This document shows positions 10,498-58,020 of a DNA stretch of 64,000 nucleotides, piece by piece. The notes below the pieces were generated by a model. That model did no database searches, had not been told where the DNA came from, and saw nothing but the letters and a program-made list of their open reading frames with translations. The DNA comes from Paraspadella gotoi. Taxonomy: Eukaryota > Animalia > Chaetognatha. The stretch is from positions 9,797,530-9,861,529 of the forward strand of contig CM119270.1 of assembly GCA_051294375.1 (NCBI GenBank). Direction: 5' to 3'. Numbering within the stretch: position 1 is the stretch's first letter; every line of letters starts with the position of its first letter. Position numbers and translations under genes: made by a program.

Positions 10498-12006
10498 TCC
10501 CTTAAACCTGTTTAAGCTGATGAAGGCTCGAAATCAAGAGCCGAAAAATGTACGTTTCTAAATGAAATAAAAACAATCGTTGTTGTAGACAAACATTTCA
10601 AAATTCAAACGCTTTCTATAATTCATAAGGGGAAGAAAGGAAAGTCGAAGGTTAGCTAAGGATAAAAGTAGAAGAAGATGGACAATGAAAAAGATGTTGG
10701 AAGAGCCAATGAGAAAGAGCAAACAACTCGCCATTATCTAATATCCATGCGTCCAGCCTTAATTATTTTTTATCGGGGTTCTCACTTTTTTCCCAACCTA
10801 TGACAGCGGTGCCTTTCTAATATCCACGCCTCTCTTCTCCCTAACCTTACCCCCGCCTCACCTTGGTGGCGGCGGCGGAGATGACGTCGAACTGATCCAT
10901 GTAGGGCGCGAGGCGAAGCTTGAGAAGTTTGCGCAGCGTCGTCCCGGAGTCTGGCGTGAGGTCGAAATTTGCGATGTCCGACATCTGCTTCCAATGGCGA
11001 GCGCGGATGCCGGGGTTGCACAAGCAGCCGATCACGGGGATGTGTTCCTTTTTTAAGAAGAGAAGGGATGGGAGGGGGGGTTAGAGGAAGGATGGTTGAT
11101 CGACAGAAAATTAGTAGGACATTACGGAAAAAAAAGCAAAAAAAAAAAATAGTAAGAGTTATTACAAAATTATAAAAAAAGGTACAAGAAAGCTTATTAT
11201 AATAAAGTAGAATAAAAGTAAATATAACAATGAGGTTTAAAACCCATTCAACCCCCCGAGCCAGTCGCCCCCTTCCAACCTTAAACTGCTTGATGGCCTC
11301 CTGGATGATGTTGCACACCCTCAGTTTTGGCGGGAGATCCTCGAAGGGGATCTCCTCGATGGGCACGAGCCGCTTCCCGGGCGGCAGCCGCGACGCCTCC
11401 TCCGCCCTATGCTTCTTCAGTTGATTCTGGAAGACTTTGGTGATCTTGTAGATTTCCCGCCAAAACTCGTCAACGTCCGTTTCGATTGATTCGGAGTTAA
11501 GTTCGAGGAAAGACCCGTCCATCCATCTGACAGGGCGCCGAGCGGTTTGGTTATTGGGAGAACCTTTTCTCTTTTCTTTGTTTAAACACACATTAAACCT
11601 CAATTTTTTTAAAACTTAATCTAATCCCTAACCCTAATCTTTAACCCTGACCTAATCCCTAATCCTAATCCCTAATTCCAATCTAAAATCCTTAACCCTA
11701 ATCTCTTAACAAATATTTAACATAATCTTTAACTTAATCTTTAACTCTAATTCCGAACCTAATTTTTAATCTTAAATTCAATTTTAATAATGAATTTAAG
11801 CTGAAATGGGCCGCTTTCGGAAAAGACGGCCGAACAGTCTTACTTTTTTTCCGCCCTCTGCCATCTCAGCACCAGCGTGAACATCTTGTGAAAGGGGTCC
11901 AATTGAGCCGTGATCTCGTCCATTTCGGGATAAACGGTGGGAGCCAGTCGGAACAGATTCTCCTCTTTGTTGATCCAGTTAATCGTGTCCTGTGTGGGAG
12001 GGAGGG

Positions 12007-15100: not shown

Positions 15101-18100
15101 TTCAGAAAAGAAAATTTTTTTTTTATTTGTTTAGATAAAAGAAAGAAATATATAGAGATATAATTTCAAGAAATAAAAGAAAGGGAAAAATATGTTACAA
15201 TTGTTTACAATTGGAAATTTTTCCAATTTTTTGCAATCATAGCTTGTAAAAGATTTTATTTTTATTTGTATTAAAATTAAGATATAGCTTCTCATTAAAA
15301 AGGTCCTTTGAGTTCCCATTTTTATTAGAGATTTAAAAAATTTTTTTTGAATTTCATCTTCAATATTATATACTGCAATATGTAAATTAGAATATAGCAT
15401 TTCTATATACTAATTTGGATATTATAATGAGTACTATAATCTCATTTGCATATTGCAGTAAATCATAATGAAGTGGAAATTCAAACCAAAAATACTTAAA
15501 TCCAAATGTAATAAGAAAATATCAAAGCTATTTCAAGATGAGAAGCCATATCTAAATTTTTAACTTACTATGATCGCACACATTTGTAAAACTTTATCAT
15601 AATTCATAATAATTTTTATTAAAAAAAAACGGTAAGTCACAGCCAAACCTATAAAAGCGTAGTAGTTTTTATATAAAAACAGCGTGACACCGACGACGAG
15701 GACGACTACGACGTCACAAAGAAGCCTGGCCTTAACATTATAGAGCCAGGACCAGGCTGGAAGGGCAGAAAAAAAGGAGAGAAAAGAAAGGTGGAAAGAA
15801 GGAGGGGAAAAGAGAGAAAGAAAAAGAAAGAAACAGAAGGGTATAAACTATAAAGTTAGGCGAATAAAGAATAAGAGAGATTAGGATAGAAAAAAGATTG
15901 GGGTTGATAATAAAAAAGGAAAAAAAAACATTGAAAAAATGGAGAAGAGAGAGAGGGGGGAAAATATGGTGAGAAAGGGAGAGGAGAATAAGAGAGGACG
16001 GAAAAAAAAACTTTTCTTTTAAAAAATTAAACATTTCCTAACAAATAATAACAAAATCGTATTTGAAAATTAACCGAATTTAACCGTTAAAATAAATATA
16101 TTAACGGTTAAGTTAAAATTATAATTAATTAACTGCCTAATTAATTAATTAATTAATTAATTAACTTGAATAATTTAATTAATAATTAATTACCGATAAT
16201 GGCAGATCCGACATTGTTTGCTCAAACCTGTTTCTGTAATACTTAGAAGAGAGATAGTAGGGGGTGTCTAATATAGAATATATCAAGTTCTCGTAAGGTT
16301 TAATTTGACTAATCCCTGGCCTTAAATGGAAAAAAAAATCTATTTCACTATTTGAACGGCAATTACTAATAAGTGAACGGGGCGAATTGACTAGAAATTT
16401 TGTATGTGGGTAGGAAAGTGTGTGATTAAGCTGGAAATCAAGTTTCGATGGAATCGTCTGAGTGGAAATGAGTTTAAATGGAAAAAACAAAAAACCTGTT
16501 TCACTAATTGACTATGCTTCTTTTTCTTTTTATATTAAATGTAAATGCAAGATGTATTAATTATTCAAATAATTAATCAGTTAACTATTCAATTAATCAA
16601 TTAATTAATAAATAATTAATTAAGAGTTCAAATAATCAATCAATTAATTATTCAATCAATCAATTTATTTAGTTATCTATTAATTAATTATTAAATCAAT
16701 ACATTTATTTATAAATTAATTAATTATAAATTAATCAATCAATCAAGTCAATCTTTATCGGCATTATTGTCGTCATCACCATCATCGTCGTCATTGCTTT
16801 TGTCGTGATCAGTGAGGAAAAGACCTAAAAATAAACATTTCGGATCAAATTAATGAATTTATTAATTAAATTATTATTTTAGTTTATATAGTTTGTATTA
16901 ATTAATTAATTAATTACCGCTAACCACTGACTTAGTCAATTACAATATACATTTCCCCGTCCTTACTTACTTAGATTCAGTCAGACCTACCCGACCTTAG
17001 TTAGAGCAGTGTACACCAATCACCAATGAATCCAACTGAACCCCACCTGCGCTTCCATGAGCTTCTTCTGCACGCCCCTCACGTCCTGGACGTACTGGCC
17101 CATCATGTCCATTTCGCAGTAATCGTTAAACTCTTCGATTCTGTTCCTCAGCTTCTCCAAGTCGCCGGTGACTCTGTCCCGTTTTTCCGCCAGCGCCTCT
17201 TCGAACCCCAAGCGCGCCTCCTCGCAGATGGAAGCGTTTTCTTCGAAGATGGGCTGGATCTGACAAAGGTTGGGTTGAAGGATTTAAATGCCTGGCAGAT
17301 TTAATAAATAAAATGATTGGATGATTAGATAAAAGCTTGATTGAATTATTTAATTTATATATTCATTCTTTTATTGTTTGATTGATTGACTGAATTTTTA
17401 GTCGGATCTGCTTATCAGCAGATCCCGACTCTATAAATCACTTTGTCGGTCCGTCGGTCCGCCCCCTCAATATTGTCGGGCACTAACTTATATCATGTCA
17501 GAACATCGAATTATGATAAATTATGCAAAAAAAAATGATGTCCGTCCGTCCGTCCGTCCGTCCGTCCCACCTTAGATTAAAAAACACCAATTACTCGTGA
17601 TTGGATGGATGGATTTGAATGAAATTTTGTGTGTGGGTAGGGAAGTGTGTGAATAAGCTGGATATGAAGTTTCGATGGAATCGTCCGAGTGGAAATGAGT
17701 TTAAATGGAAAAAACAAAAAAATATATTTGTGGATAAGGCGCTACGTGGGATGAAGATGACTGTCCGTAACTTCTATAACCCCCTCTCGCAGCCATGGAA
17801 CGGGTCCCTGGGCTTGGAACCAGGCTTGAGGGTTTGCCATGCCCCCAAGGGGGCTTACGGCCGTACTCACGCTTCCCGCAGGGTAGGTACCGGGTTGGGA
17901 TTGAACCCGGTACTTAGTGGTCATGAGCTGATGGCTTTACTCAATGAGCCACCGGGTCATAACTGAAAGTGTCATGATTCTAGGCAGGGTGAACCTAGGC
18001 AATGCCCGACTACATATTTTACTATTTGAACACCAATTGCTCATGAGTGGATGGGGCGATTGACCTGGAATTTTGTATGTGAGTAGGAAAGTGTGTGATT

Positions 18101-21100
18101 GAACAGGAAACCAAGTTTCGATGGAATCGTTTGAGTAGAAATGAGTTTAAATGGAAAAAAACAAATAACCTGTTTCACTAATTGATTATGATTTTTTTCC
18201 TTTTATATTAATTGTAATTGCAGGATGTATTAATAAATAAAATAATTAATCAGTTAATTAATCAATTAGTCAATTAATTAATCACTAATTAATTATTCAG
18301 TCAATCAATCCGTCCATCCGTCCCACCTTAGCAAAAAGCCCCAATAACTCGTGAATGGCTGGTTGGATCGGAATGAAATTTTGTGTATGGGTAGGAACAT
18401 GTGTGATGAAGCTGGATATAAAGTTTCGACGGAATCGTGTGAGTGGATTTGAGTTTAAATACTCTAATTAATCATAATTGGATGGATAGATTGAGTTCAA
18501 ATTTTGTGTGTGGGTAGGAAAATGTGTGACGAAGCTTGATATAAAGTTTCGGTACGAGTGGAAATGAGTTTAAATGAAAAAAATATGAGTCACATTTACT
18601 TGACTCTTTTTACTTATTTTAACGCATAATAGATTGAGATGAAATTTTGTGAGCGGGAAGGAAAGTTTGTGAAGAAGCTAGATATAAAATTTTGACGGAA
18701 TTGTGCCAGTGGAAATGAGTTTAAATGGAAAAAATATAAGTCACATTTACTTTATTTTAAGGAAATCGATGATGATAAACTGTATATAAATTTATAATTA
18801 ATTATTAAATATTAAAATTAATTAATTTATTAATTAATTAATCGATTAATTAATTAATTAATTAATTTTCGTAGGCAGATCCGACATTGTTTGCTCAAAC
18901 TTGTTTTGATTGGCGACTTGTTGTTTACTTGAATTTCCAGTCAAATCTTGATTCATGGATTTATTTCCTTCTGTCTTTCTTTCTTCATTCCTTCTTTCCT
19001 TTCTTCTTTTTTCATTCATTCCTTCCTTCCTTCCTTCCTTCCTTCCTTCCTTCCTTCCTTCCTTCCTTCCTTCCTTCCTTCCTTCCTTCCTTCCTTCCTT
19101 CCTACCTTTGATGGCCAAGTCAATACACGACTGTTGATGTCGATTTCTTCGGGCGAAAACATGTAGACGTCGACGAGATATCGCAATCTGTTTAAGTATA
19201 AAAACATTTATAAAATCGATCGAAATTAACTATTTGATTATTTAATTAATGAAAAAATAATATATTTTTTGTTTTCCGTTTCATCCTCAGCCAAGTGCCT
19301 GACCTGTTCTGCGCCTCCTGTATCCTCTGGTTGAGGAATTGCAATCCCTCCTCCTCCACCTGCTCTATGAACTCCATCATCTCCATCATATCTTCAGTGT
19401 CTTCTGGCGTCTTGAGCGCCTTGGCGCGGATGGTCTCAAACTCGCGGCAGATGCTGCAAGAAAAACGGCAATTTGGGGGCGGAGGGAGCAGATTATGTTG
19501 TGGCCTATTACAAATGAGATCTCATTTGCATATTGTCGTGTTTTGATGAAGTAATTATAAAAATTTATTCTGGTACAATAAATGTTAGTACAGTATAGTT
19601 TAAACTTATCAATTGCAAGGAAAAAGATTGAGAAATAATTTTAAAAAAATATCAATTTCATCAACAAAAATAATTGTTATTTTGTTGAAGAGTAGGTGCA
19701 AGTGAAGATCTAGTGGGTGCAGCTAAAATTTATCTTATATGTTCCTTTGTCTTACAAAAAGCTTTCTTCTTTGTAGAGCCCTTTAGTACAATATGGTGAA
19801 AATACAAAAAAAATTTTATGGGACTGTTCTTATAGGAGAGAAGATAAGTTAAGTAACCGGAAAAACCAGTAGCTCCACCAATACATATAAATCACTTTAA
19901 AGGGCTTAAACTGAACTGTTATTGTGGCACTAATATTATTTTGGTACTTGCAAAAATATTTTATAAATCAAAAAAAATTATTTTTGTTTCGAAGTATAAT
20001 TTATGATTAAAATACTTTTATAAAAACATAGAATAAAAAATAGAATAAAATAAAATAAAATGAGAAAAAAATTTTTGTTGAAAAATATCAAAAAAATAAT
20101 TTTTAAAAGATTTAAGATAATAACTAGTTTGAGCAAACAATGTCGGATCTGCCCACGATCATTATCGGTAATTAAATAATTAATATTTAATTAATAATAA
20201 ATTATTTCAAGTTAATTAATTAAAAAAATAAACAAAAAGATATAATTTTTAAAAATAAAATTAATTTTTTTTTAAATCTTAGAATCTTACAAAAAGAGAG
20301 ATGAGGAAGGTATAAAAACTTTACTTTAAAAATAAAAAATCGGTGATTATTTTTTTTAATTAATTAATTAATTAATTACCAATAATGATCGGTGGGCAAT
20401 CCGACATTGTTGCTCAACTTTGTTATTAATTATATGTGGATTTAAAATCCACCCAACCGTTCATCAGCGCCATTGGTGCCGGAGGCAAGTCATCACCTCC
20501 CAACCCAAAGGGTCGGGTTCTAGCCCAGTGGTGCGTCTGGCAGTTTAAGAGGGACGGGGCGCTTAACCCGCCTGTAACATGGTGTTACACGCCTGATCCG
20601 AAGCTCAGGGACTGCTTATATTGAATGGTTCTGTCATTAACACATATCAATAATTACTGTCTCTTCATTGGTGAGCCCGACTTCCGAACACAACAGCAAA
20701 CAACAACACTTTCAGGCGACATGCCTCAACCTGGCGATGCACTTTCCGCCCACAACACATCAGGCGACATGCTTCAACTTGGTGACAAACTTTCCAAACT
20801 AACAACAACAATTCACTGAAGGAGACGAGCAGCAGACTTCTCCCTATCGGAGGGGGGATGTATGGTGGACTAAAATCCACACAACCGTTCATCATGGCCA
20901 TGTGTGCCGCGAGGACAAGTCATTCGCCTCCCAACCCCAAAGGTCCGGGGTTCTAGCCTGGTGGTCGCCTAGCAGTTAAGAGAGGACGGGGCGCTTAACC
21001 CGCCTGTAACTCGGTGTTACAGCCTGATCCGAAGCTCAGGGACTGCTTATATTGAACGGTTCTGTCATTAACACTTATCAATAATTACTGCTCTTCTTCA

Positions 21101-24100
21101 ACTTCTATATTTAATTCTTCATTTGGACAAGTACATACTTGGAGTTGTATCACTAATAAGTCTAAAACAAACTACTCTACAACATTTTCAGATGGTTTTT
21201 TATGCTTTTATTGAGCTTAACAAATTTTTCGAATTTATTTCAATTTGACTTTTTACTTTATGAACCAATATAAAAAATTATCCAATTCATTTAATAAATA
21301 AAGCTATCTTGCCCCTGACTTGGACAGTAAGGCTAGTAAGAATTCCTAATTTCACTTTATTAAAATTCTATAAGATAATAGTAAGGAACGAACAACATTA
21401 TACTAATGAACCGTTCAATATACAGCAGTCCGCTGAGCTTCGGATCAGGCTGTAACACCATGTTACAGGCGGGTTAAGCGCCCCCCGTCCCTTCTTACCT
21501 CGCTCCAGACGACCACCAGGCTAGAACCCCGGACCTTTGGGTTGGGAGGCGAATGACTTGCCCTCCGGCACCAATGGCCGCTGATGAACGGTTGGTGGAT
21601 TTTAGTCCACCATACAATAAATGTTAAAATTTCAAACAGTTTTTTTAAAGAATTTTTTTGGCCAGATTTGGATTCGTCATAAAAAGTTGATAAAAAGAAA
21701 TATAACTCTTTTTGAAAAATTCTTTCATTAAGTGGGGTCAAAAAATTAGAAAAGCTATATTTTAAGCTAAAAGAAAACTTAACGTTTTTTACATATTAAA
21801 TATAGTTTTTTAAATTTTGATCCCACTTAATGAAAGAATTTTTAAAAGATGATTTATATTTTCTTTTATCAACTTTTAACATGCCCACTTAGTTCCCTTG
21901 TGGGCAGTGGGTTTCCGCTTTCATCTGTGGTCAATAAATAAGTGGAGCGGTGTGGGCTGTAAATTTGTTAGTCTGAGTCTAGTGGCCGCTGTGTCCGGAT
22001 GCTTAAAATATTGGGAAGTGATGATTGGAAGTGATGATTGGGGAGGTGATTACTGAGCTCCCTTCTGGTTATTTCTCCCGTTTATCCGTGTCTTTTGTTG
22101 TGTTCTTCGGCGTCGGTTAATAATTGTGAGGTATGTTTTAATTTCTTTGAATATTTTAATTTTTAAAATGGGATTTTTTTCGTCCCTTTTTTAACTAAAA
22201 TAAACAAAATGGAGACTAGTAACACTGATTGTCTCTGACCGGTCCAGGAGTGGTCCCCATCTGGGTCATAACCAATTTAAGGGGGAGAGAGGAAAAAATA
22301 ATTCCCTCTGCTTAAGGTTTTTGTCCAACCCTAAGCCTTCATCTTGTACCTCCTTATCTGTCCCCGCATTCTGTAGACCTCCCATCTTGTTTCTTTTGTT
22401 TTTTAGAAATTGTTCCTCCTTTTCCACCCCCCGTCCCCGCGGTCTCTGTCCGCTTTGCAAATCCTTTTGCCCAGTTCTTGATGCGGCCTTGAATCTTTGG
22501 GTGGAGAAAGAGGAGGAGGAGGAATGAAGAAGAAGAAAGGTAAGGAGGAGAAGAAAAGAAAAAGGAGGAGGAGGAGGAGAAGGAAGAAGAAAGGGAGGAG
22601 GAAAGAAGAAGAGAAGGAGGAAGGAGGAAAGAAGAAGAAAGAGAGGAGGAGGAGGAAGAAGGAGGCGAGAGGAGGAGGAGCAGAAAGAAGAAGAAGAGGA
22701 GGAGGAGAAAGAAGAAAGAGGAGGAGAAAAAGAGGAAAATCTGGAAAAAAGGAGAAAATTTTCTTTTTTTTTGGAAAAGATGGTCGACAAAAAAAAAGGG
22801 GGGAATGAAAAATTCCGGAAAACCGGCCCGAGTGGAAAGTGGGTCTCTCTCTCTCTCTCTTTCTCTATCTCTGCTCTCGTTCGCTCACTCTCTTTCTCTC
22901 TCGCGTCTTTCTCTCTCTCCTCATTCTCCTTTCGCTCTCGGGTGATGTGTCGAGGACTACCAAAAGTGATTTACCAGAAAAAAAAGAGCCGGACGTTCGA
23001 TTCTCCTGTGCGGAATAAAGATGGGAATGTATCTTCGTTTGGAGGCGTGGCCCTTTACCTGGGGGAGGTTCAGGTCAATGTGAAAAAAAAAAGAAAAAAA
23101 GAACAAGAAGAACGGTGATTTCTAATGTGTTGCTGGGGGGCGGGGCGCCGCAGTGACTTTATTATATTCATGTTGGGTAAAGTTTCCCTTAATCACAATA
23201 TGACATAACAAGACAAATGACTAAACGAAACCTTTCTTTGGCCGTGGTATTTATGCACCTGCACTCAAAAATTCGTCTTTTATTACCTTAATAGTTTTTT
23301 AGCGATTTCCTGAAGGCGGCGGCTAGTTAGTCCTTTAACATTCTTGAGTTTTAATTTACTGTCTTTAACAAAAGAGGCCCTCCAACTATAGGGAAATTAT
23401 ATGTATTTTTTTAAACGGTAACGTTGGGACCAGACCGATAGCAGAACAAGACATACCGAACAGACCGACGCCGGTGAAAAGTGACTTATAAATTTTGCTT
23501 TCCTGCGGAATGCTCTTCTCTTGGCGCAACTACAATAAGAAGGAAAGGAAATAAAGAATGGATCTTCTCTTGTCGAAAGTGGGCGGATTCCCCTGAACTT
23601 ACCTGCAGGGAATTTTAGGGGTTGAGTGAAGAATAAGAGAGATGGAAAAAAAGAGAAAAGTAAAAAAAAATGTTTGTCTGTAAAGGAAACTTNNNNNNNN
23701 NNNNNNNNNNNNNNNNNTGGGCAGATCCGACATTGTTTGCTCAAACTTGTTATTATTATAGTGGATTAAAATCCACCAACCGTTCATCAGCGGCCATTGA
23801 TAAATATATGGTCTTAATTAAGAGTGCATATGGGGATAATAAATCAACTGTAATTATTCAATTCAGATATCTTTCAATTATTTTAGGTTTTATCTATTAA
23901 TTAATTTAATTAATCAATTTACATTTTTTAATAAATTAAAATTAATTTAAAATTAATCAACCTTCAATCGGGGAAGGTCAATCTTTATCGGCATTAATTG
24001 TCGTCCATCACCATTCATCGGCGTCATTGCTTTTGGTCGGTGATCAGTGAGGGAAAAGACCTAAAAAATAAATCATCGGATCAAATTACATGAGAAATTT

Positions 24101-27100: not shown

Positions 27101-30100
27101 AAAAAAATATCAATTTGCATCAACAAAAAAATTGTTATTTTTGTTGAAGAGTAGGTGCAAGGAAGATCTAGTGGTGAGTCAAAATTTAATCTTATATGTT
27201 CCCTTTGTCTTACAAAAAGCTTTCTTCTTTGTGAGCCCTTAGTACAATATGGTGAAAATACAAAAAAAATTTTATGGGACTGTTCATTAATAGGAGAGAA
27301 GATGAAGTTAAGTAAGCCGGAAATACCAGTAGTCCACCAATACATATAAATACTTTAAAAGGGCTTAAACTGAACCTGTTTATTGTGGCTAATATTATTT
27401 TGGTACTTGCAAAAATACTTTATAAATCAAAAAAAATTATTTGTTGTTTCGAAGTATACATTATGATTAAAATCTTTTATAAAAACATAGAATAAAAATA
27501 GAATAAATAAAATGAGAAAAATGAAAAAAATTTTGTGAAAAATATCAAAAAAAATAATTTTTAAAAGATTTAAGATAATAACCAGTTTGAGCCAAACAGA
27601 TGTCGGATCTGCCCATCGATCATTATCGGTACACTTAAATAATTAATATTTAATTAATTAATAAATTATTCAAGTTAAATTAATTAAAACAAATAAACAA
27701 AAAGATATTAATTTTAAAAATAAAATTAATTTTTTCTTTAAATCTTAGAAATCCCTACAAAAAGCAGAAGATGAGGAAGGTATAAAGGAAACTTACTTGT
27801 TAAACCAAATAAAAATCGGTGGATTCTTTTTTTAATTAATTAACTTAATTAATTACCACATAATGATCGTGGGCAAAGATCCGACCATTGTTTGCTCAAA
27901 CTTTGTTATGATTATATGTGGATTTTAGAATATCCACCCAACCGTTCATCAGCGTCCACTTGGGTGCCGGCAAGGCAACTAAAGGTCCATTCAGCTTCTC
28001 CAACCCAAACGGGTCGGGTTCTGCCCAGTGGTGCAGTCTTGGCCAGTAAGCAGTGGGACGGGGCCCGCTTAACTCCCGCCGCTAAGCCTATCGGTGTCTA
28101 CACGCCTCATCGAAGCTCAGGGACTTGCTTATATTGAATGGTTCGGTTCATTAACCACACATTATCAATCAATTACTGTCTTTTCATTCGTGAGCCCGAC
28201 TGTCCGAACACAACAGCAACAACAACATCTTCAGGCGACATGCCTCAACCTGGCGATGCATTTCNNNNNNNNNNNNNNNNNNNNNNNNNCGCCCACAACA
28301 CATCAGGCGACATGCTTCAACTTGGTGACAAACTTTCCACTAACAACAACAATTCACTGAAGAGACGCAGCAGACTTCTCCCTACGGGAGGGGGGGATGT
28401 ATGGTGGACTAAAATCCACCAACCGTTCATCAGTGGCCATTGGTGCCGGAGGCAAGTCATTCGCCTCCCAACCCAAAGGTCCGGGGTTCTAGCCTGGTGG
28501 TCGCCTAGCAGTTAAGAGGGACGGGGCGCTTAACCCGCCTGTAACTCGGTGTTACAGCCTGATCCGAAGCTCAGGGACTGCTTATATTGAACGGTTCTGT
28601 CATTAACACTTATCAATAATTACTGTCTCTTCAACTTCTTATATTTAATTCTTCATTTGGTACAAGTACATACTTGGAGTTGTATCACTAATAAGTCTAA
28701 AACAAACTACTCTACACATTTTTCAGATGGGTTTTTATGCTTTTATGAGTTAACAAATTTTTCGAATTTATTTCAATTTGACTTTTTACTTTATAAAACA
28801 ATAATAAAAATTAATCTATCAATTTAACTAAAATAAGCTATCTTGCCCACTGATATTTGGAACAAGTAAGATGGTAAGCTTAAAATTCCTAAATTCAACT
28901 TTACTTAAATTCTAAAGTAGGAAGAAAAATTTACCAATGAAGCCGTTCAATATAAGCAGTCCCTGAGCTTTTTTTTTTTCCCTTTATTGTTTTTTTTAAA
29001 TTTATTTTTGCGCTTTTTCATAAAAAGAAGCTTTTTCGCGTGGTGGGGGGGGGGGGGGGGGGTGGGAGATTTTAGACTAGACACTCCACTTCTTGTTTTT
29101 CAAATACCAAAAAAACCCCCCCGGAACCCAAATACAAGCGGCGGGGAAGGGACCACCCACCTCCCCCCTCCCTTTGGGGTGGGGGGGTTCCCTTTCCCGC
29201 GCGCGCTGGGGGGGCGGGCCCCCCTTTGTGGGGGGGTGGTTCCGCGCGGGTGTTGTTTTATGTGGGTTTTCGGGGTGTTTCGTGCTCCCCGGGACGGGGG
29301 GCTTTTTTTTTTTCTTTTTCACCTTTCCCTTTTTTTTCGAAAGACTTAACAAAACCTCCGACTCTTAGCAAACGTTGGGGGTTTTTTTTTTGTGTGGTGG
29401 GCATTCCGCTCCACTTCTCCTTTTTTTTGGGGGAGTGGTCCCTCCCGGTGGGTGGGGGGGGGTTGTTTCTTATGTTCTTCAATATTTTTCCAAGCCACGG
29501 GGAGGGGGACCCCGCCGTCCTCTTCCTGCCCGACGACCACCAGGCTAGAACCCCGGACCTTTGGGTTGGGAGGCGAATGACTTGCCTCCGGCACCAATGG
29601 CCGCTGATGAACGGTTGGTGGATTTTAGTCCACCATACAATAAAAGTTAAATTTCAAAACAGTTTTTTTAAAGATTTTTTGCAGATTTTGGATTCGTCAT
29701 AAAAAGTTGATAAAAAGAAATATAACTCTTTTTGAAAAATTCTTTCATTAAGTGGGTCAAAAATTAGAAAAAGCTATATTTAAGCTGAAAATTAACTTTT
29801 TACATATTAAAATATAGTTTTTTAAATTTTGATCCCACTTAATGAAAGAATTTTTTAAAAATGATTTATATTTTCTTTTTATCAACTTTTAACGAGGAAT
29901 TCAAATCTGCAATCAAAATTAGAAAAGCCATTTTGAAATTTTTCGATTTTATAAGGATAGTACTATATATATATAGCCTATTGCAAAATTAAAAAACATA
30001 AAATTAATTTTTTTTACAAATTAATGTTCACTGATGGTATGTTGTTCAAAATTGACTTCTAGAATTTTGAATGCAACTTCACTACGCCTTATTGGACAGG

Positions 30101-33100
30101 CTTGGTGGTTTAAGGCCTCCATCACTCTTACAAAATAATGAAATAGCAGGTCCCTGCAAGCTTTCAATCAAGACTTCTTCACAGTCTCGTTTATTCACTC
30201 CCAGAGTACTGGCTTCCTATAAATGAAGTGGTATTATTTCAAAGAATGTTTCAATTGTTATAAGACCACTCCTTAAGTATTAGATCGAGAATACTTATTG
30301 TACTTCACACTGTAGTCGGGCATTGCCTAGTTCACCCGCCTATAAGCATGACACATTCAGTCCTGACCCGGTGGCATCATTGAGTAAAGCCATCAGCTCA
30401 TGACCACTAGGTACCGGTTCAATCACAACCCGGTACTACCCTGCAGGAAGCGTGAGGACGGCCTAAGCCGCCTTGGGGCATGGCAAACCCTCAAGCCTGG
30501 TTCCAAGCCCAGGCGCCGTTCCATGGCTGCTAGAGGGGTTATAGAAGTTACGGACAGTCATCTTCAGCCCACGTAGCGCCTTATCCACACTGGTGAGCCC
30601 ATCCTGTCGAGCTATATCCAACCTTCTGATTCCAGGCCCATGGACGTGCTGAGATTGCTCCCCTCCCTCACTGGAAGCAGTGCAAGGGTGGGTTACAATC
30701 TCGGGGGCTTGTCTCGGCGCATTGCCTAGGTTCACCCGCCTATAAGCATGTACACCTTCAGTCCTGACCCGGTGGCTCATTGAGTAAAGCCATCAGCTCA
30801 TGACCACTTAGGTACCGGGTTCGATCCCAACCCAGTACCATTCACCCCCATTCCCGTCTGGGAAAGCGTGAGGACGGCCGTAAGCCGCCCTGTTGGCATG
30901 GCATACCCTCAAGCCTGGTTCCAAGCCCAGGGAGCCGTTCCATGGCTGCTAGAGGGGGTTATAGAAGTTACAGACAGTCATCTTCAGCCCACGTAGCGCC
31001 TTATCCACAGCACTAGCATCAAAATACAAGGAGCTGAATTTTATGAAATTGGTACAACCAATATAAAAATTATCCATTCATTTAATAAATAAGCTATCTT
31101 GCCCCTGACTTTGGACAGGCTTTGGTGGTTTAAGGCCTCCATCACTCTTACAAGATAATGACATAGCAGGTCCCTGTAAGCTTTCAATCAAGACTCTCTC
31201 ACAGTCTCGTTTATTCACTCCCAGAGTACCTGGCTGTAAATGTTTATATCATAAAATAGTTGCCCTATTTTCTAGGGAATCTCTGAAAAAAAATCAAATC
31301 TGAATTAAAAAAATTAAGATACGGTGTTGAACAAACTCCGTCATCACATCCCGTGCTTGTGTATGTTGTGGTGAATATTGCAAAAGTAATGAGTACAGAA
31401 TTTAACTTTCTTGACGAAGTGAAGTTAAAAACGAAGAGTTGCAGCTCAAACCACAGGATTCTTCTTGAAGAAAAAAATATCTTGGGCAAGAAAGAAAAGG
31501 TGGGGGAGATTCTATGAGCGCGATTTTGGAAAAATGTTTTTCGTTTCAAAGATATCAAGGAATTTTTTCATAGAATTGGAGTTCGTGACCTAAAAGTAAT
31601 CCATGCCAAATTTCATGAGAAACCGCTTTACCGTTTGGGCTGCAACTCTTCAAATAGGTTTCTTTTATTTTATATAGTACCAAAAAAAAACGAAAAAAAC
31701 GATAACGCCTTTGAAAAAATAGTAAAGTGAATACATTTTCGGAATCGCCAGGAGCTATCCTTTCGAAATCCGAGCTCGGTTTTAGCCTAATTATAATTTG
31801 AATTGAGTGATCCCGGACCTTAATCACAAACAAACAATAAAAAAGAAAGTCAAATACAATGGTAAAAACACCATACAATTTTAATGGGACTGTTCTTATA
31901 TTTCAGAAAAAAATATCAAAACCTTTGGTGGATACACTTAAATTAAATTTTATTGCTATTTCGTTTTTAAAAATGGTAAGGTTACGGTTGGTGTTGTAGA
32001 AGACGAGTGTTTATACAGCTATCTGGTTTATTAAGACTAAAACATGTAAAAATTTGCAAGTAAAGATCTAGTGGGTGCAGACAGAAGAGCAAATTTCTAT
32101 AGAAAGTAAAGGGAAAATGCTCATAGTAGAGAAAGTAAGAGACAAATCCTTGTAGGAGAGAAGAAAAGTTTAGTAATTTCACTAAAGTTATTTACAAATA
32201 CTATATATAGAAAAAATGTACAATTTCGGGGGGTAAGTAAATCACTAAAGTTATATACAACAATTGTTTTAAGTAACCGGAACAAAAAAAAATTGAAAAC
32301 AAAAAAAGAAAAAGGAGAAAAATGTACAATTTCGGCGGTAATTCTTTTTTACCTGAGATTTTCTTCCTTGTGGTCGTTGGACACCTTCTTCAAGAGGACG
32401 TCGGCCAAGCCACGGGCCGCATCCGCCAAACCGCGCTTAAGATCATCGCAGTCGAGACGAATCAGGTCGAAGTGCTCGATGGAGGAAAGACCAGAGATCT
32501 CTCTCCCGATGGCGCTGAATCGCTCGATAAACTGGAAAGGGAGGAAGTGATGGAATGGAAATGAAATGAATGGAGAAATGAAGGAATGAAAGAATGAATA
32601 AAACGAATGAATGAATAAATAAATTATTAAATGAACGAATGAATTAATAATGGAATGAATGAATGAATGAATGAATGAATGAATGACGATAAAACTAAAG
32701 TTTAAATGAAGGAACATATGAATGAATTAAGAAATGGACAAATGATTAAATTTCTAAACGATTGAATAAGATATGAATGATTGATCAAGTTGAAAAGCTT
32801 CTCACTTGGCAATACTCTTGAAAAGAGTGCTCTTCTTCCATAAACTGATCGATTTGCGATCTCGCCTCTCCGTTCACGATGTAATCGTATCTGAAATTAA
32901 AACATCATTGGTCACCCTTGTTGCCATTACTGTCATCCTCATTCTACTTTTTATTTTTTCACTATTTCAAATGTAATGTTATTTTATTACTTTTTTTAAT
33001 CAATTGAGTTCTAAAAATGATTTAATGATAAAATAACGTTGAGTCGTTTCTGCAGTTACGTGATCACCTCTCCTTGAACGTCTGCAGATGTTCCGAGGGC

Positions 33101-36100
33101 GCGACGAAGTAGTATTTACAGGCGGACTTCAAATTCTCGATCGATTCCGTGATGATGTGAGAGGCTACAGTGGCGTCCGTGTAGACCGGATTACCGCCAC
33201 TCAGCCATGACTGTACAGTGGGCACCGCCTGCATCGTTTTAGTCACCTGAAGAGGGGGGAAAATCAAGAGGGAAAGCTTTCGGAAATTGAAAAAACGACT
33301 CTCGCTCTCTCTCTGAATAATTACTGTCTCTTCAGGTTAAAGCTGCGAAAAATGATCAAAACGTTTTATCATATAATAGTTTCTATTTCAAAGGGTAATA
33401 AGTGGAGAATTTGACAATTTTTTTCCATTTTTGACGCTGAAGACATTGAAATTTTTAATAACATATTTTATATTTTTGATCTAAATTTTTATGAAAAATC
33501 AGAATCTTTAATAAAAATAAAAAAAAAAAAAAATTTAAAATTTATGATTTTATAAGAATATTATTATAAATATATCGTAATTAATGATACTATTCCCCAA
33601 ACAATATAAGCAAAATATTTTTTGTACTCCTTAATAATACTATCTCACGTCTAAATATTCTTGTTTGTTCACTCAAATAAAATTTATGTTCCCCAGTGCT
33701 CCGCTCTCAGTAAGAACGAATTAAACACCTTGTGGATTCAGCGTTAAGATAATTGAAAATGATGAATTCGACGGCGATAAAAATGATCGAGAAAATTATT
33801 GCAAAATTCTAACTTCCCAAATCTACATCAACAAACTTAAGAGAGGATGTTGTTGACTACGGAGTAAATCGTTCTCCGCTCACCGCGTCTTCTTCAAATC
33901 GTAAATCGCCATGAAGGCGAAAAGCCCTGTTGACGATGCCATTTTCAATGTCAGTGCAAACCCTGCCTTCTGCGCCGTTGCCAACGGGTCGCGGCCTAAT
34001 AATCAAGCGTAAAAACTTATCTTGTGCTCCGGCTGCAAAGAAGATCATTTCATTGCCTCCTGCCCTTCTTTCCGAAACTTAAATTCCGATTCAAGAAAGA
34101 ACTGCGCCGTGCATCTACGACTTTGCTTCCGTTGTTTAAATGGTGGGCACATTGCTAAAAACTGTTGGTCCGAGCGCCATTGTGGTGCTTGTGATAGGTT
34201 GCATCACACTTCGCTTCACGACTCTTTTGGTGGAACAACGCTACTGCCTTCAAAAGGAACATTTTCCACAGAATCAAATAAACTCGTCGTGGAGAAAACC
34301 ACCGACCCATTGAATCTCTCGACGCCAGCTCAAGAAGCACCAAGACCCGCGGACCCTACCGCAGAGTTTGAAAAGCCAAATCTAAAAGGAAAATCTCCTT
34401 CCTTGTCATCGGAGCCTTCAGTGACACCAACATTGTCGAGTTCAAAATCTGTATCAGCGTCACCTTGGTCGACATCGTCATCCCTATCAATTAAGATAAT
34501 TCGACCGGCTGAGGCAAAGCCGCGACCAAAGATAACAAGAAAATATTTTTGTATTACCTGTTTAGCAACAGATCACAACCAAAAACACTGTAATATTGTT
34601 AAAAAGGTTCGTTCTAATTACAATAGTTAGTACTTTTATGTTTAAGTATTATGCGGTTTGTAACTAACCCATTTGTCACTTTTCCATATTTTAAATGTCA
34701 ACATCTTTATAGATTGTCAATATCTTTATGTTTATTGTTTAACCTATATTGACAAGAGGGGGAGTAAAATATGTTAGGCTTGCCTCTGTTCACACTAAGG
34801 ACGTTTTTGATAAATAGTATCTGGTCTCTTTCTTACGCCTCAATTTCCGAGAGTTTCGCGAGGCGCGTTTTAGATTTCTATTGAACTCTCACCAAAATTG
34901 TTCGCCCGGAGAAACTTCGTTCTTACGAGTATCAAATATTCGATATCTACTTTTACTTTGTCTTGTGCGACTCAAGTTAGTACATTTCGTTACGGGCGAA
35001 TCAACGACATTGGTCTCCGCGGGCGCAAAGTCTCAAATAACTTTACACCATCCCAGGCGTAGTGTTCCATCCACACTGTTCCATCCACATACCTAACGAC
35101 TTCCCTCTGCGTTGGCAAAGCGAGACCGCCCTAGGGTAACCGTTCCAGTGACTTGATGCATCACTGAGGGTTGGAAGCCCCCAAAGCCAACAGTGAGTTA
35201 CCCCATCCCAATGGGCATCACAGGCAACTCGGCTGTTGCCATAAGTGGTGAGCCCTACTATCGAACACGCAACCTTCTCAGGGTATGCTACGACAAACGC
35301 CTATGCCCTGCCGACTTTGGGTACGCTACGACAAACGCCTATGCCCCTGGGGTACGCTACGACAAACGCCTATGCCTTCACAACTCGCGCTTTCTCTCTC
35401 TCCCACTATGGTAACAGTGAGATGGGCATCACAGGCAATCCGGTTGTTGCCATACCCCGTCATTTGATCGGATGATGATGACTCGCGGAGAGGAAAGTGG
35501 ACAAACGACAGAGCTAATTAGTTTGTGGGGATCGGGACAAGTAGTCATCATTGCTAATGGTGATCGGGACTCTTTAGAGTGAGTATTGACCTTTTAAACC
35601 GTCGCTATACTTCAAAAAGTCGAATTGTTTTAGCCGTGATGCGTTTAATCTCCGGCTATCCCGGTTTTTTTGGCTTAAAGAGAGGGCTCATCACTGAAGT
35701 CTTCAGTGAAGGGAACGATTTGAGCGGGCCAGTGAAAGGAGGTCCTCTAGTGAGATGCCCCCTCGACACTGACATTTACAACTCAAAGCCATCACTAACT
35801 TGTGTGATTAGTAGAGTGATCAATTCTTGCAAGTCCTGGTAGGGTGGGTAGAACTGCATTTTTTCGTCATCAAAGGTAAGTTCCATCTTCAGGGTAGGGA
35901 GCTTTTTGTTGTCGTCGCTGACTTCGAAGGCTTCTACCCAGGAGCGAATCGTGCGCACCAGCAAGTCTTTCAACTGTAGTAAAAACAAAGGTTGATCAAA
36001 TAATAATTTATTATAAAGTAATTTGATTAATTTGATTTGATTAATTAATTATTTAATTTGATTAATTCTAATCAAAACAAGATGTCTCATCCACACTAAC

Positions 36101-39100
36101 TCGATATCATCGTTTTCTGCCTGTCAAAAGTCGACTCGTGAATCTGCTTCACCATAACAATGCGTAATCATTAGGGCGGATCATATGCACATATAATTTT
36201 TCAGAATATGTTGCCTATCGGTGATTCCACTATCTAATGTAGTTTTATTCGATTTCGCAATAATAATTTCCAAAAAAATATTCAGGATCTACTGCAGATT
36301 TTATAATTTAAAAAAATCTTCAATTGCGATATGTGATTGGTGGAAATTGATCACGTGACCATCGAATTTTAGTTTGTTTTATTCTTAATAAAAAGTTATT
36401 TTTACGTATTTAAAGCAATACATTAAGATTTATGAACAATATCAAAGAGTTAATAAGCAAGTGAAAGAAATAAATAAAGCTCCTGACCGTATCAAAGATT
36501 GTACGGACATACAATCGACTTATCTCTCACTCTTTCTTACTCCCTCTCTCTCTTTCTCTCTCTCTCTGAAGAAAAATTCTATCTTCTCGCACGCGGAAAC
36601 TAACGTTCAAGTGTCCCCCGTCCAAAAATGAGTCGACAAGAGTTTCAAAACGTATGTTTAATGAGAGAAAACAGTAAAAAAAAACATGGTTTAGTAACTC
36701 GTAGAAACAAGTTTCAGACGGACGATCGTGATTCGGTCTTAAAAACGAATAAAAACGTAGTCAATGGGAAGTCCAGCTCCAGAGATGAATCAAAGCCCAA
36801 GTTCTAGGATATTTTTTTTTTCATTTTTAATTTTTAAAATTTTGAAACTTAAGAGATTGTATGTACATTGTACAATACTTAGATTTTAAAGCAAGAAATA
36901 TTTTCGAAATTTGCTGTTATTCGCTTAGGCAATAATTTGTAGTCAGAATTCATTCAGCCAAGTGAAATAAGAACTCGAAAAAGATATGTGATGAAGGCCC
37001 GTCCGTAGCGCATAACGGTGCTCAGAGCGGCGTCCTTGGATTCGTGTCCTGGACAAAAGCATCGTAAACAATTCATTACTAAATTACGATAGTGGGAGCA
37101 GGAAGATGAAGTATGTTTTCTTCATATAAGATACACTCGCGATCTTTTGGTGCTTGAGTTTTTTTGTTGATTCAGCGACGTCCTTGGCAACGAAATCGGT
37201 CGTGGAGCCGAAGATGAAGGATCCGGCGAAGGAAACGGCGCTGAAGTTGATGCAGGAGGTCACGGTGCTGTCGGCGCAGAAGACGACGAAAGGAGTCGTT
37301 ATCAGCGGCTACATAAAGGCAACCTTTTTTCTCCTGAAAGATTTTCTATTATTTTTTGGAGAAAGTCACGAAAGAACGTTGAAACTTTGTCGATCCAAAT
37401 CGAAGAAAGAATAGGTGAGGATTGAAGGTTTTATTCGAGGAGATTTTCCTCCAGTGTCGAAATTCGACCATGGAGTGGAGAGATCGCAAAACCGACGGCC
37501 GCTTCAATGAGCGGCCGCTAATTGCATTGATCGAGATAACCCCAAACTCGGGAATAAGTAAAAGAAATATAAAATATATTTTTTGAAAGAAAAACAAAAT
37601 GAATTTGTGATGATACGGCGAGTCCACGATACGGGTTACGTCGTTTTTACTGTAGAAAGAATGCTCGATTCGTTCGGCCGTGGTTAACTGGCTTTCAACA
37701 TGGAGCAAGGTTTTTCTAAATCTTGAATGACGTAAATGTCGAATAAATGACGAATAAATCGTGAATAAGTTTATTTATTGTAGAGAATAATTTAATGGCG
37801 AAATTAATGAAAGTATGGTGGACTAAAATCCACCAACCGTTCATCAGGAGGCAAGTCATTCGCTCTCCAACCCAAAGGTCCGGGGTTCTGCCTGGTGGTC
37901 GCCTTGCAGTTAAAGGGACGGCGGGCTTAACCCGGCCGTAACCGGTGTTACAGCCTGATTCGAAGCTCAGGACTGCCTATATTGAACGGTTCTGTCATCT
38001 AACTCATAACAATTATTACTGTCTCTTCAGAAGTACAATAAAATGGTTAAGAAAATCTTGATTCCGTAAAAACTACGGTTCCATACGGCCGATTTTTTCC
38101 AGAGAAACAATTATGACGAGGTTTTCGGCTAAAAAAAGCGACAGAACTGTGAAAAGACTGGTCTGAAAAGCGTCAAACTAAATAACCAGGGAAAAGATGG
38201 ACGCGAGCTCACAAAATCTCTTTATTGTATTATTTATATCCTTTCCAAAAAATATAGTTACTAACTATATATTACTGTGAGATAAGACAGTGCAGATTTT
38301 AATTTATTTGCCAATATTTCGATTTATATTAAGAAATTTTTTGAACTCAAAAAGGACCGGTAAAAAAAATATGGAGACGGGGCAGCAAGTAAAAAAGAAA
38401 AAATTAGACGGGAAACAATGTTTAGAGGGGAATTGTTGTGGGGCGATGCGCGGAGGGCGCCGGACTGGCTTTGGGAAGCCACCGCAGACCTCTTAACGCG
38501 TAGACCTACAATGTCAGTTAGCGCACCGACGGGACGGCACGTCGACCGCAAATGAAGCCGACTGTGTAGGATCTGTGAATATGAATACACAAGAGAACGG
38601 GGGACGCCATCTAAATTAGACTCACACTCGAACACATACTTTTCTAATGAATGTCACAGATGCTCACTATAAGGCTGAAAGGGAACAAGTAATGAATCGC
38701 ACCACTTATGAATACACAATGAAATCAATAACTGATGAATGTTCACATCGCGTAAGGTGTCAAGAGTCTTTGAAGGATCCCCTTCCACTAATACCGTCTT
38801 CCAACAATGATCGCCACGCCTTTCTGCAGGTTAAAGGATGAAGAGGTAAGATTAAGTTAGCTTAAGGGATTAAGAGTAAGGATTAAGTTACTTAAGGTGG
38901 ATTAGAGGTTAGATTAAGTAAGCTTAAGGGATTAGGGTTAATGATTGCGGTTTATGGATTTGTTAATCTGATTTTGCTGAATGGAAAGAGGAGCCGCAAG
39001 AATAAAAGCAAAAAAGGAAAAAATAATTAGGAGACTCGAGACTCATTGGAAAATATTTTTGATAAAAGAGTCTACGGACGGATTAAAAGACTGACATAAA

Positions 39101-41511: not shown

Positions 41512-41544
<33 letters not shown>

Positions 41545-42442
41545 NNNNNNNNNNNNNNNNNNNNNNNNNGGCACTGGACTTCAGAGCAGCGAGGCTGGAG
41601 GGGAGTGCTTCTTTAAGCATGTCATCTTCAGCATGCTTAGCGAGCCGCTGTGTCTTTCCATCGCCATAATCTCTTTGAGTGGGATTACTAGATTTGTGTA
41701 TGAATGATGATTGTCCTGTTTGACCGTTGGACTGGATGACGGCATCGTGCGATCTGTCGGGATCGCCCCGAGCGTGTGCCGCCTTTCTTACGCGGGATCG
41801 ACAACGCAACCTCGAGGCGTTATCAATTGCGTCGATCCATTCGTTCGATGTTGTCTGGGTCGAAACTCGGAAGTTTCGGCGTTCTTGGTCTGTTTGTAAT
41901 GGCGTTTCCTCTGGGACGGCGTCTAGTCGTCGCTTCCGGTCGCAAGGGCGGGATCTCGGACGACTCGTCGTTTGAATTCACCTTATTTTTGTTGACCTTC
42001 TCCGTGAGGGCGGTCAATTGTTTTTGCATGTCGTCATGTAATTGCATCACGATTTGCGCGAGGGGTCGATGGTCCATGGCGGCGACGTTGGCGGCAACGA
42101 TGCCGACGTCGCGGCGTCGTGGAATGCGTCACTCGGCTGCCTCGGACGAGAGACGTTGCGGTTTGACGGGCATCTTGGGAACTCTTCTTAGTTGACTGGC
42201 GTGGTGGACGAGCGAAAGTCGTTATTCTTTTGGAGCAAAAGCGAGGTAAAGTTTCAGTTTTTGTTTTTTATTTTGTTTTTGATTTTTTTTCGTTTCAAGG
42301 GAGGGAGAAAAATCACGTCGGGCTCACCAGGTGTGGCAGGAGATGATTACGACACAAAGTTTTGATCGAGAATGATTTATTCTCCAACAGTAAAGAATAA
42401 ATAACATTAACAATTTGAGACGCTAAGTCTAAACAATGAGAC

Positions 42443-57783: not shown

Positions 57784-58020
57784 TGTGGAAGACGATGCCG
57801 CGAGCAGTTTACCGTCCGTTGCACACAAGGTCCCGAACTTCGGATCGGGCTGTAGTCCGACACTACAGGTGGGTTAGACGCCCCGTCCCGCTTTTACTTG
57901 TGTGAATCAGCAGGACGCGAACCCGAGTCCTTTGGGTTGGGAGGAGCTCGTGCTACCTCGGGCGCCATAAGTGCTGCTGATTCTCAGACGAGTAACGGGG
58001 TATGAAATACTACCGCTACA
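57784..58020 (-). mobile_element. Family-B LTR (divergent relative of A), preceded by a PPT
   Basis: TGTAG...CCACA termini; AGGGGGGGA PPT plus a 2-nt spacer (plus strand 58021-58032). Confidence 0.75.
57822..57904 (-). ncRNA. Type-P5 twister ribozyme fold in the family-B LTR
   Basis: P5 CACACAAG/CTTGTGTG, P3 CTGTAGT/ACTACAG, P4 CCCGA/TCGGG, L4 TCCGAAGT, T2 AC/GT (compensatory relative to family A). Confidence 0.8.

What the first reader, a model, noticed from the sequence alone, without database searches (positions are those of the whole stretch)
28525..28533. Twister P1 is replaced by a short palindrome in all four families, suggesting dimer-dependent cleavage
Between the T1 strand and the scissile TAA, each family has a self-complementary segment too short for a stable hairpin: GGCGCT (A), GGCGTC (B), CGGCCG (C), CCCTAGGG (35128-35135). 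The sequences differ, but palindromy is kept (with G-U pairs in A and B). This parallels the palindromic stem III of minimal hammerheads that act as dimers. Inference: P1 forms between the two LTR copies of one transcript, so full-length LTR-to-LTR RNAs would be cut efficiently while solo LTRs stay quiet. Caveat: P1 is known to be partly dispensable in some twisters.
Basis: partly seen in the sequence, partly recalled or inferred. Interest (0 to 1): 0.82.

Follow-up and report, generated by a model that had tools for sequence, protein, structure and literature searches.

The report
Palindrome-paired twister ribozymes in mini-retrotransposons
Five families of repeats in this probably animal DNA, most with the hallmarks of tiny jumping genes, carry a twister-type self-cutting RNA fold whose first helix is shrunk to a 6-8-base self-complementary stretch, which likely lets two copies pair and cut together, a trick so far described for hammerhead ribozymes; cutting itself is untested.

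Summary
GGCGCT (28525-28530) lies between the T1 strand and the scissile TAA of a type-P5 twister fold in the LTR of a non-coding mini-retrotransposon (PBS, PPT, 4-bp target duplications). I found a fifth family, E, with AGGCCT. The central pair, which cannot form inside one strand, is C-G, G-C or U-A in different families. In contrast, 35 distinct phage/metagenome type-P5 P1 segments are 14-30-nt, none palindromic. On a real two-LTR element the strand-swapped double twister is predicted 5.8 kcal/mol more stable than two separate folds, and only with the palindrome duplex. Against: P1 is dispensable in type-P1 twisters, a 6-nt tether need not block monomer folding, the first copy could fold before the second is made, and there is no RNA or cleavage evidence. 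Dimer-dependent cleavage is my best reading at about 0.5; 'solo LTRs stay quiet' is untested. Ten literature searches found neither palindromic dimer twisters nor twister-bearing LTR retrozymes.

The parts
28525..28530 (+). Family A palindromic P1 replacement GGCGCT (G-U, G-C, C-G as an RNA self-duplex)
   Evidence: self-duplex -8.3, own hairpin +5.6 kcal/mol; no variant above 2.0% in 4 runs
28531..28533 (+). Conserved UAA; predicted cut between 28531 and 28532
   Evidence: sequence; cut position by analogy to known twisters (PMC8501958 passage); not tested
28507..28582 (+). Family A type-P5-like twister fold: P5 28507-28513/28576-28582, P2 28518-28519/28534-28535, GA 28520-28521, T1 28522-28524/28564-28566, T2 28537-28538/28569-28570, P3 28539-28545/28551-28557, P4 28558-28562/28571-28575
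   Evidence: no Rfam twister match for this copy
28400..28633 (+). Family A LTR (3' LTR of an element), starts TA, ends CA
   Evidence: solo copy 55789-56022 has a 4-bp target duplication CAAT
28386..28397 (+). Polypurine tract before the 3' LTR
   Evidence: sequence
28188..28200 (+). Primer-binding-site-like motif (1 mismatch to TGGTGAGCCCGAC) behind a noisy 5' LTR (about 27929-28186)
   Evidence: 5 matches in the window, 0.45 expected; tRNA-Trp identity is from recall plus PMC2582038
20433..21100 (+). Two-LTR family A element: 5' LTR 20433-20667, PBS 20669-20681, non-coding middle, PPT, 3' LTR about 20861-21100; both linkers GGCGCT (20558, 20990); cut-to-cut unit 432 nt
   Evidence: LTRs 214 of 240 identical
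30311..31009 (+). Two-LTR family C element: LTR 30311-30589, PBS 30591-30603, 3' LTR about 30710-31009; linkers CGGCC (30459) and CGGCCG (30875); cut-to-cut unit 417 nt
   Evidence: Rfam Twister-P5 16.9 bits at 30867-30930
17729..18014 (-). Family C solo LTR, TG...CA, 4-bp target duplication AATA; twister 17879-17800 with linker CGGCCG, T1 and T2 each with a mismatch
57784..58020 (-). Family B LTR behind a PPT remnant; twister 57904-57822, linker GGCGTC 57882-57877, T2 changed on both sides (AC/GU), 8-bp P5
   Evidence: 161 of 237 identical to the A LTR
35111..35191 (+). Family D twister fold, linker CCCTAGGG 35129-35136; single copy with a mismatch in P2 and in T2; PBS-like motif at 35246-35258
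   Evidence: (relaxed descriptor only)
31094..31158 (-).
   Evidence: Rfam Twister-P5 25.8 bits, E 0.0017 on a 341-base search, below gathering 37.6; Infernal aligns P1 as 3 bp with a 0-nt loop

Best explanation
GGCGCT at 28525-28530 is the shrunken P1 segment of a type-P5 twister fold in the LTR of a non-coding mini-retrotransposon, and it likely pairs with the same segment of a second copy to build a strand-swapped double twister that would cut efficiently only as a pair. Shown: the fold's helices and two pseudoknots are complementary and covary across five families; the linker is self-complementary in each; at least A, C and D (and a B derivative) sit next to a PBS, and A and C occur as two-LTR elements. 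Inferred steps: (1) an LTR-to-LTR transcript carries two motifs 417-432 nt apart; (2) the 5' half of each motif (P5 strand, P2 strand, GA, T1 strand, linker) pairs with the 3' half of the other, and the two linkers form one shared 6-8-bp P1; (3) both UA sites are cut, releasing a unit-length RNA; (4) a host ligase would close it into a circle that keeps a single motif, slow as a monomer and therefore stable; (5) the circle would be copied from its PBS and integrated by the enzymes of an autonomous Ty3/gypsy element, as proposed for plant retrozymes.
For: Central linker pair is C-G (A, B), G-C (C, E) or U-A (D): no loop is left, so it cannot form in one strand. On 7 aligned copies of A, B, C, E (D left out because MAFFT misaligned it) the 3 linker pairs are 100% paired, 2 of 3 with changes on both sides; the whole 10-pair set scores 92.9% paired, covariation 0.695 against 0.240 in shuffles and at most 0.095 when slid (structure was derived from these sequences, which favours it). 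Linker self-duplex -6.3 to -14.6, own hairpin +0.4 to +5.6 kcal/mol. Real element 20433-21098: swapped with P1 duplex -194.3, two separate folds -188.5, swapped without the duplex -185.7 kcal/mol ensemble. Unconstrained co-folding of two copies gives the swapped form with the linker duplex in 5 of 9 copies (A28525, B, D, both E). Monomer MFE of A and B traps the T1 strand in an off-register hairpin. Control: 51 of 164 fetched phage, metagenome and prokaryote loci parse as type-P5; their 35 distinct P1 segments are 14-30 nt and none is palindromic; the shortest seen elsewhere is 3 bp plus a GAAA loop (L075, L076). Closed-P1 twisters respond to what is attached at P1 (about 10- to 35-fold switches, PMC5052635). 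Hammerhead precedent (PMC7229834, PMC6765202). These cores have a 2-bp P2 (3 bp in D), so P1 may matter more than in model twisters (inference).
Against: P1 can be deleted with almost wild-type rate (PMC5408937); P1 flaws had no effect among natural type-P1 twisters (PMC11662667 section 32), though no type-P5 was tested there. A 6-nt tether can be read as 1 bp plus a tetraloop and need not block the monomer (inference). A 5-9-bp P5 closes each monomer locally and the first copy could fold about 420 nt before the second is made, a kinetic barrier to swapping (inference). Any hairpin-containing RNA gains energy on swapping, and the energy model leaves out both pseudoknots; the free ensemble of the A element (-214.0) is far below all constrained states. 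4 of 9 co-folds did not give the linker duplex. Only 4 roughly independent lineages; B and D are single copies; 6 of 17 copies in the window break the palindrome. The whole A core, not just the linker, is invariant in the runs, so that test does not single out the linker. Rfam scores are below gathering (E 25.8, C 16.9; A none, D only a 12.8-bit type-P1 fragment). The control patterns fixed T1 and parts of P4, so the phage sample is biased.
Confidence: 0.5

Rival explanations
1. Monomer-active minimal twister: the linker is just a shrunken P1 cap (one or two base pairs plus a short loop) or a neutral tether. Each LTR cuts on its own, and palindromy is what is left when a hairpin loses its loop, kept by descent.
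For: P1 dispensable in open-ended twisters. All other helices can form within one motif. D can form 2 bp plus a tetraloop at +0.4 kcal/mol. Few independent lineages.
Against: A cap constrains only the outer pairs; all 8 inner pairs are complementary (1.5e-5 to 1e-3 by chance) and the central pair occurs in three forms. Natural short closed P1 elsewhere uses GNRA or UUCG loops, not palindromes.
Confidence: 0.22
2. The palindrome is selected for pairing between two RNAs but not for catalysis: it is a kissing-loop dimerisation signal for packaging two genomes into the helper element's particle, placed on the exposed P1 loop, while monomers cleave normally.
For: LTR-retrotransposon RNA is packaged as a dimer, started by kissing loops (Ty1, PMC5454406 passages); 6-nt GC-rich palindromes in loops are the retroviral dimer-initiation design (recalled). 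It explains the covarying central pair equally well.
Against: In all five families the palindrome fills exactly the P1 position, from the T1 strand to the scissile U, with no spare bases. An earlier AI note describes a similar P1 in a non-LTR Penelope-like element, which has no capsid (lead only, not tested).
Confidence: 0.15
3. Dimer-dependent cleavage happens mainly in trans, between separate transcripts or circles of these very abundant repeats, so solo LTRs are not quiet and circles are opened when two meet.
For: Predicted swapped homodimers are 9.7-15.9 kcal/mol below two monomers. Summed depth over the A motif is orders of magnitude above that of single flanking contigs (not a copy number).
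Against: Pre-folded monomers must melt P5, P2 and both pseudoknots; a tandem copy gives a much higher local concentration (inference).
Confidence: 0.08
4. The motifs no longer cut (or never did); the fold serves another LTR role.
For: Below Rfam gathering scores; weak P2; several copies damaged in T1, T2 or UAA.
Against: Invariant GA, UAA and U-NNN-AAGY with both pseudoknots covarying in five families; a phage type-P5 above Rfam's threshold has the same 2-bp P2 (L072, 44 bits).
Confidence: 0.05

Closest known systems
Type-P5 twister ribozyme (Rfam RF02684, clan CL00120; Roth et al. 2014, not read, known through PMC5408937 passages)
   Same: Order P2 strand-GA-T1 strand-P1-UAA-P2-T2-(P3)-P4/L4 with ends in a P5 stem; two pseudoknots; U-NNN-AAGY loop.
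   Different: P1 is a 6-8-nt palindrome with no loop instead of a 10-30-nt hairpin; T1 differs from GGG/CCC; scores below Rfam gathering; found in eukaryotic LTRs.
Dimer-dependent minimal type I hammerheads of newt/axolotl repeats and Penelope-like elements (PMC7229834, PMC6765202 passages; Lunse et al. 2017 not held)
   Same: A closed helix shrunk to one pair plus a palindromic tetraloop; tandem copies; dimers predicted to rebuild the helix.
   Different: Different ribozyme class; helix III is needed for hammerhead activity whereas twister P1 can be dispensable; those elements lack LTR, PBS and PPT.
Plant LTR retrozymes (Cervera et al. 2016, PMC4918200 passages)
   Same: Non-coding element, ribozyme in each LTR, PBS, PPT, 4-bp target duplication, solo LTRs, unit-length RNA predicted between the two cut sites.
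   Different: Twister instead of type III hammerhead; smaller (LTR 234-290 bp, unit 417-432 nt against about 330-350 bp and 700 nt); tRNA-Trp-like rather than tRNA-Met PBS; host probably an animal; predicted circles less structured (56-63% paired, z -0.2 and -2.0).
Twister T-variants of Perere-3 in Schistosoma mansoni (PMC8501958 passages)
   Same: Twister with a reduced P1 serving a retrotransposon; P1 state affects activity.
   Different: Type-P1, single, at the 5' end of a non-LTR element; P1 is completed by flanking target DNA, not by a second copy.
CsRn1 clade of Ty3/gypsy elements (PMC2582038, PMC3601003 passages)
   Same: tRNA-Trp PBS and 4-bp target duplication; found in invertebrates; candidate helper.
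   Different: These elements code for no protein; the link rests on the PBS and duplication size only.

Membership tests
Twister ribozyme, type P5 | Conserved GA and UAA of L1, U-NNN-AAGY loop L4 | tested here: met
Twister ribozyme, type P5 | Pseudoknots T1 and T2 complementary and covarying | tested here: met
   T1 CGG/CCG, GGA/UCC, CCG/UGG, UGG/CCA; T2 GC/GC or AC/GU; D and some copies have a T2 mismatch
Twister ribozyme, type P5 | Stems P2 and P4, ends in a P5 stem | tested here: met
   P5 5-9 bp, P4 3-5 bp, P2 2-3 bp; 2-bp P2 also in L072
Twister ribozyme, type P5 | P1 closed as a hairpin within one motif | tested here: not met
   no loop; own-hairpin energies positive
Twister ribozyme, type P5 | Rfam RF02684 gathering score 37.6 | tested here: not met
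   E 25.8, C 16.9, A and D no P5 match; B not run on its own, no match in the whole-window scan
Twister ribozyme, type P5 | Self-cleavage at U/A | not testable with these tools
   needs a bench assay
LTR retrozyme / TRIM | Two LTRs around a short non-coding middle | tested here: met
   A 20433-21100, C 30311-31009; D has only a truncated second repeat; B and E no two-LTR copy in the window
LTR retrozyme / TRIM | PBS and PPT | tested here: met
   PBS behind A, C, D and a B derivative; PPT before A, B, C LTRs; none seen for E
LTR retrozyme / TRIM | 4-bp target-site duplication | tested here: inconclusive
   exact for 2 solo LTRs (CAAT, AATA), 3 of 4 bases for two A solos and the C element, absent at the two-LTR A element
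LTR retrozyme (as defined in plants) | Hammerhead ribozyme in each LTR | tested here: not met
   no hammerhead match in the window; a twister fold takes its place
LTR retrozyme (as defined in plants) | Accumulating circular RNA | not testable with these tools
   only contigs were available; no stranded RNA reads
Dimer-dependent minimal ribozyme | Palindromic remnant of a closed helix, tandem copies | tested here: met
Dimer-dependent minimal ribozyme | Dimers cleave faster than monomers | not testable with these tools
   only secondary-structure energies

The most novel reading that the evidence does not exclude
These are animal LTR retrozymes built on twister ribozymes that work as obligate strand-swapped pairs: the shared palindromic P1 acts as a copy counter, so two-LTR transcripts are cut into unit-length circles that stay intact as monomers, and pairing of two circles (for example when a helper element packages a dimer) would reopen them. 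Twisters would then have converged on the double-hammerhead solution in at least four lineages.
Probability: 0.35. Interest if true: 0.85.

Novelty: new variant of a known kind. Interest (0 to 1): 0.72.

Why it matters
It would be a natural double twister, showing that dimer gating is a general design for circle-forming retroelements and not a hammerhead quirk, and it would extend LTR-type retrozymes (described in plants; animal ones were reported to lack LTR, PBS and PPT, PMC7229834) to a probable animal host with a different ribozyme class. It also explains why such motifs are missed: they fall below Rfam thresholds. The claim can be settled with a few short transcripts, and a twister that cuts only when two P1 halves meet would be a ready-made RNA logic part.

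Tried and rejected
No whole genome is held for this window, so families could be sampled only in the window and through laid contigs. No RNA holder listed; run X9 is only guessed to be RNA, so expression is open. One search showed 40 of 285 variant rows, so minor variants in the C and E linkers were not seen. The constrained cis-versus-swapped run on the C element picked wrong P5 pairs and used decayed copies; discarded. The 'swapped without duplex' value for D failed (impossible constraint); discarded. A metagenome scan for relatives of A and C gave 6 loci, none similar to the window; a viral scan with a short-linker pattern gave 23 loci, of which 2 were long-P1 twisters and the rest did not fit. 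Two prokaryote hits with apparent 3- and 7-nt linkers (L147, L118) proved to be type-P1 twisters; five loci were set aside as type-P1 (these two, and L085, L087, L089, which one search had parsed as 14-nt GAAA hairpins), and L075/L076 were missed by the strict T2 rule. A DNA-level palindrome role was rejected: A and B are self-complementary only with G-U pairs. The gag-like frame behind the PBS at 42317-42329 gave no Pfam match and no homologue, so a helper element is not identified. No tRNA gene in the window, so the PBS could not be matched to a host tRNA. The CHiTA supplement could not be read and may hold twisters with very short P1; Lunse et al. 2017 is not held. Look-ups of earlier findings by place and by sequence were empty.

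Full report
Setting. The window is repeat-rich eukaryotic DNA with a noisy assembly. Exons match axonemal dynein heavy chains: 91% identity to a metagenome protein named dynein heavy chain, and best solved-structure matches to dynein axonemal heavy chain 12 (E 3e-14 and 7e-13). An invertebrate animal is my inference from this and from the PBS type; it is not established. No whole genome is held.

The observation. At 28516-28582 the sequence reads GAGG-GA-CGG-GGCGCT-TAA-CCC-GC-[P3]-CCTGA-TCCGAAGC-TCAGG: P2 strand, GA, T1 strand, six-base linker, scissile UAA, P2, T2, P3, P4 and loop L4. The flanks pair as a 7-bp P5, so the ends lie in P5 as a type-P5 twister requires. A strict descriptor finds 8 motifs in the window, 7 in these families, against 37 in 60 random windows, none of them palindromic. 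T1 and T2 change on both sides between families. Rfam recognises only E (25.8 bits) and C (16.9 bits), below the gathering score of 37.6, and aligns P1 with a zero-length loop; A gives no twister match and D only a 12.8-bit fragment. A phage type-P5 that passes Rfam (L072, 44 bits) has the same 2-bp P2.

The elements. A and C occur as two LTRs around a short non-coding middle: A 20433-21100 (LTRs 214 of 240 identical) and C 30311-31009 (266 of 300). A motif TGGTGAGCCC follows the 5' LTR in A, C, D and a twister-less B derivative at 6144-6234 (5 matches, 0.45 expected); a polypurine tract precedes A, B and C LTRs; two solo LTRs have exact 4-bp target duplications, three other cases match in 3 of 4 bases and the two-LTR A element has none. 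That this PBS fits tRNA-Trp is recalled; a tRNA-Trp PBS and 4-bp duplication mark the CsRn1 clade (PMC2582038 passages). E ends in CA but has no PBS-bearing copy here. Cut-to-cut units would be 432 nt (A) and 417 nt (C).

Is the palindrome kept? In the window 11 of 17 copies are perfect; the others are noisy or decayed, and some copies are duplicates. Laid contigs from 4 runs show the A linker with no variant above 2.0% of depth, while the P3 loop differs in 86-98% and 40-66% at two places; but the rest of the core is just as constant. For C, the sixth base missing at 30459 is present in 40-84% of depth in 3 of 4 runs. B and D are single copies. Across families, all three linker pairs stay complementary in 7 aligned copies, two with changes on both sides (D left out after misalignment), and D adds U-A as a third kind of central pair. 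A hairpin remnant would constrain only outer pairs: chance for the 8 inner pairs is 1.5e-5 to 1e-3 and for the 4 central pairs 0.004-0.03, treating A/B, C, D, E as independent. G-U pairs in A and B point to RNA, not DNA.

Control. Five pattern scans of public collections gave 164 loci; 51 parse as type-P5, with 35 distinct P1 segments of 14-30 nt, none palindromic (five loci set aside as type-P1, three of them probably wrongly, all 14-nt GAAA hairpins). The shortest closed P1 seen was 3 bp plus GAAA (L075, L076). The patterns allowed linkers from 2 or 4 nt upward but fixed T1 or P4, so the sample is biased. Within it, shrinking P1 gives ordinary tetraloops, not palindromes.

Energetics. Linker self-duplexes are -6.3 to -14.6 kcal/mol and their own hairpins +0.4 to +5.6. 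On the real A element, the swapped double twister with the shared P1 has ensemble energy -194.3, two separate folds -188.5, and the swap without the duplex -185.7; the unconstrained ensemble is -214.0 because pseudoknots are not scored. Swapped homodimers are 9.7-15.9 kcal/mol below two monomers. Free co-folding gives the swapped form with the linker duplex for 5 of 9 copies. These numbers show feasibility, not need.

What the literature says. Against dependence: a twister lacking P1 cleaves at almost wild-type rate (PMC5408937 passages) and P1 flaws did not lower cleavage among natural twisters, all type-P1 (PMC11662667 abstract, passages and first part of section 32; supplement unreadable). 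For it: cleavage without P1 is called inefficient and P1 composition affects Perere-3 variants (PMC8501958 passages); aptamers on a closed P1 switch a type-P3 twister about 10- to 35-fold (PMC5052635 passages and section 6); an axolotl hammerhead with one pair plus a palindromic tetraloop cleaves much better as a dimer (PMC7229834 passages; also PMC6765202, PMC7761336 passages). Plant retrozymes supply the life-cycle model (PMC4918200 passages), and animal ones were reported to lack LTR, PBS and PPT. Ty1 kissing loops support the packaging rival (PMC5454406 passages). Ten searches and passages of PMC10085705, bioRxiv 2022.07.19.500677, PMC13725137 and PMC3601003 showed no palindromic-P1 dimer twister and no twister-bearing LTR retrozyme; the library lacks most subscription papers, and Roth 2014, Kosutic 2015 and Lunse 2017 were not read. 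Earlier AI notes describe a similar P1 in twisters of clam Naiad elements in another genome; I did not test them.

Verdict. The fold, the LTR context and the palindrome are real, and the palindrome looks selected for pairing between two copies (about 0.75 summed over the pairing readings). That this pairing gates cleavage between the two LTRs of one transcript is the best single reading at 0.5; a monomer-active minimal twister (0.22), a packaging signal (0.15), trans dimers (0.08) and no cleavage (0.05) remain. It works like a plant LTR retrozyme fitted with a double-hammerhead-style gate, but it fails the hammerhead and closed-P1 membership tests: a new variant of known kinds. Interest 0.72.

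Noticed in passing
window 63945-64000 (-): HDV-like ribozyme match (drz-agam-1, 28.4 bits, E 0.00034 on a 151-base search, below gathering 37), cut off by the window end; may head a non-LTR retroelement.
   Followed up: partly
window 42317-42329 (-) and 41528-42128 (-): Longer PBS (TGGTGAGCCCGACGTGAT) behind an LTR-like stretch, followed by short broken frames that look gag-like; possible remnant of a helper element. No Pfam or homologue hit.
   Followed up: partly
window 6144-6245 (+): Family B LTR piece with the twister region missing, still followed by the PBS.
   Followed up: partly
window 20640-21330 and 28157-28861; 37813-38091 and 45026-45312: Local duplications that include flanks (first pair 524 of 564 identical over the compared part); duplicated segments or uncollapsed haplotypes in a noisy assembly.
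   Followed up: partly
window 10782-11615, 47388-48281 (-): Exons of an axonemal dynein heavy chain gene, closest to DNAH12 among solved structures; many of the repeats lie between them.
   Followed up: partly
window 35281-35376: Short tandem repeat (about 28-nt unit) in the middle part of the D element, then a truncated second copy of the LTR end at 35422-35454.
   Followed up: no
L072 253-310 and 599-656: Metagenome contig with two type-P5 twisters 346 bases apart bracketing a short gene; the second has lost its UAA.
   Followed up: no
window 34013-34630 (+): Frame with Cys/His-rich motifs resembling a BEL/Pao-type gag zinc-knuckle region (recalled resemblance; no Pfam match).
   Followed up: no
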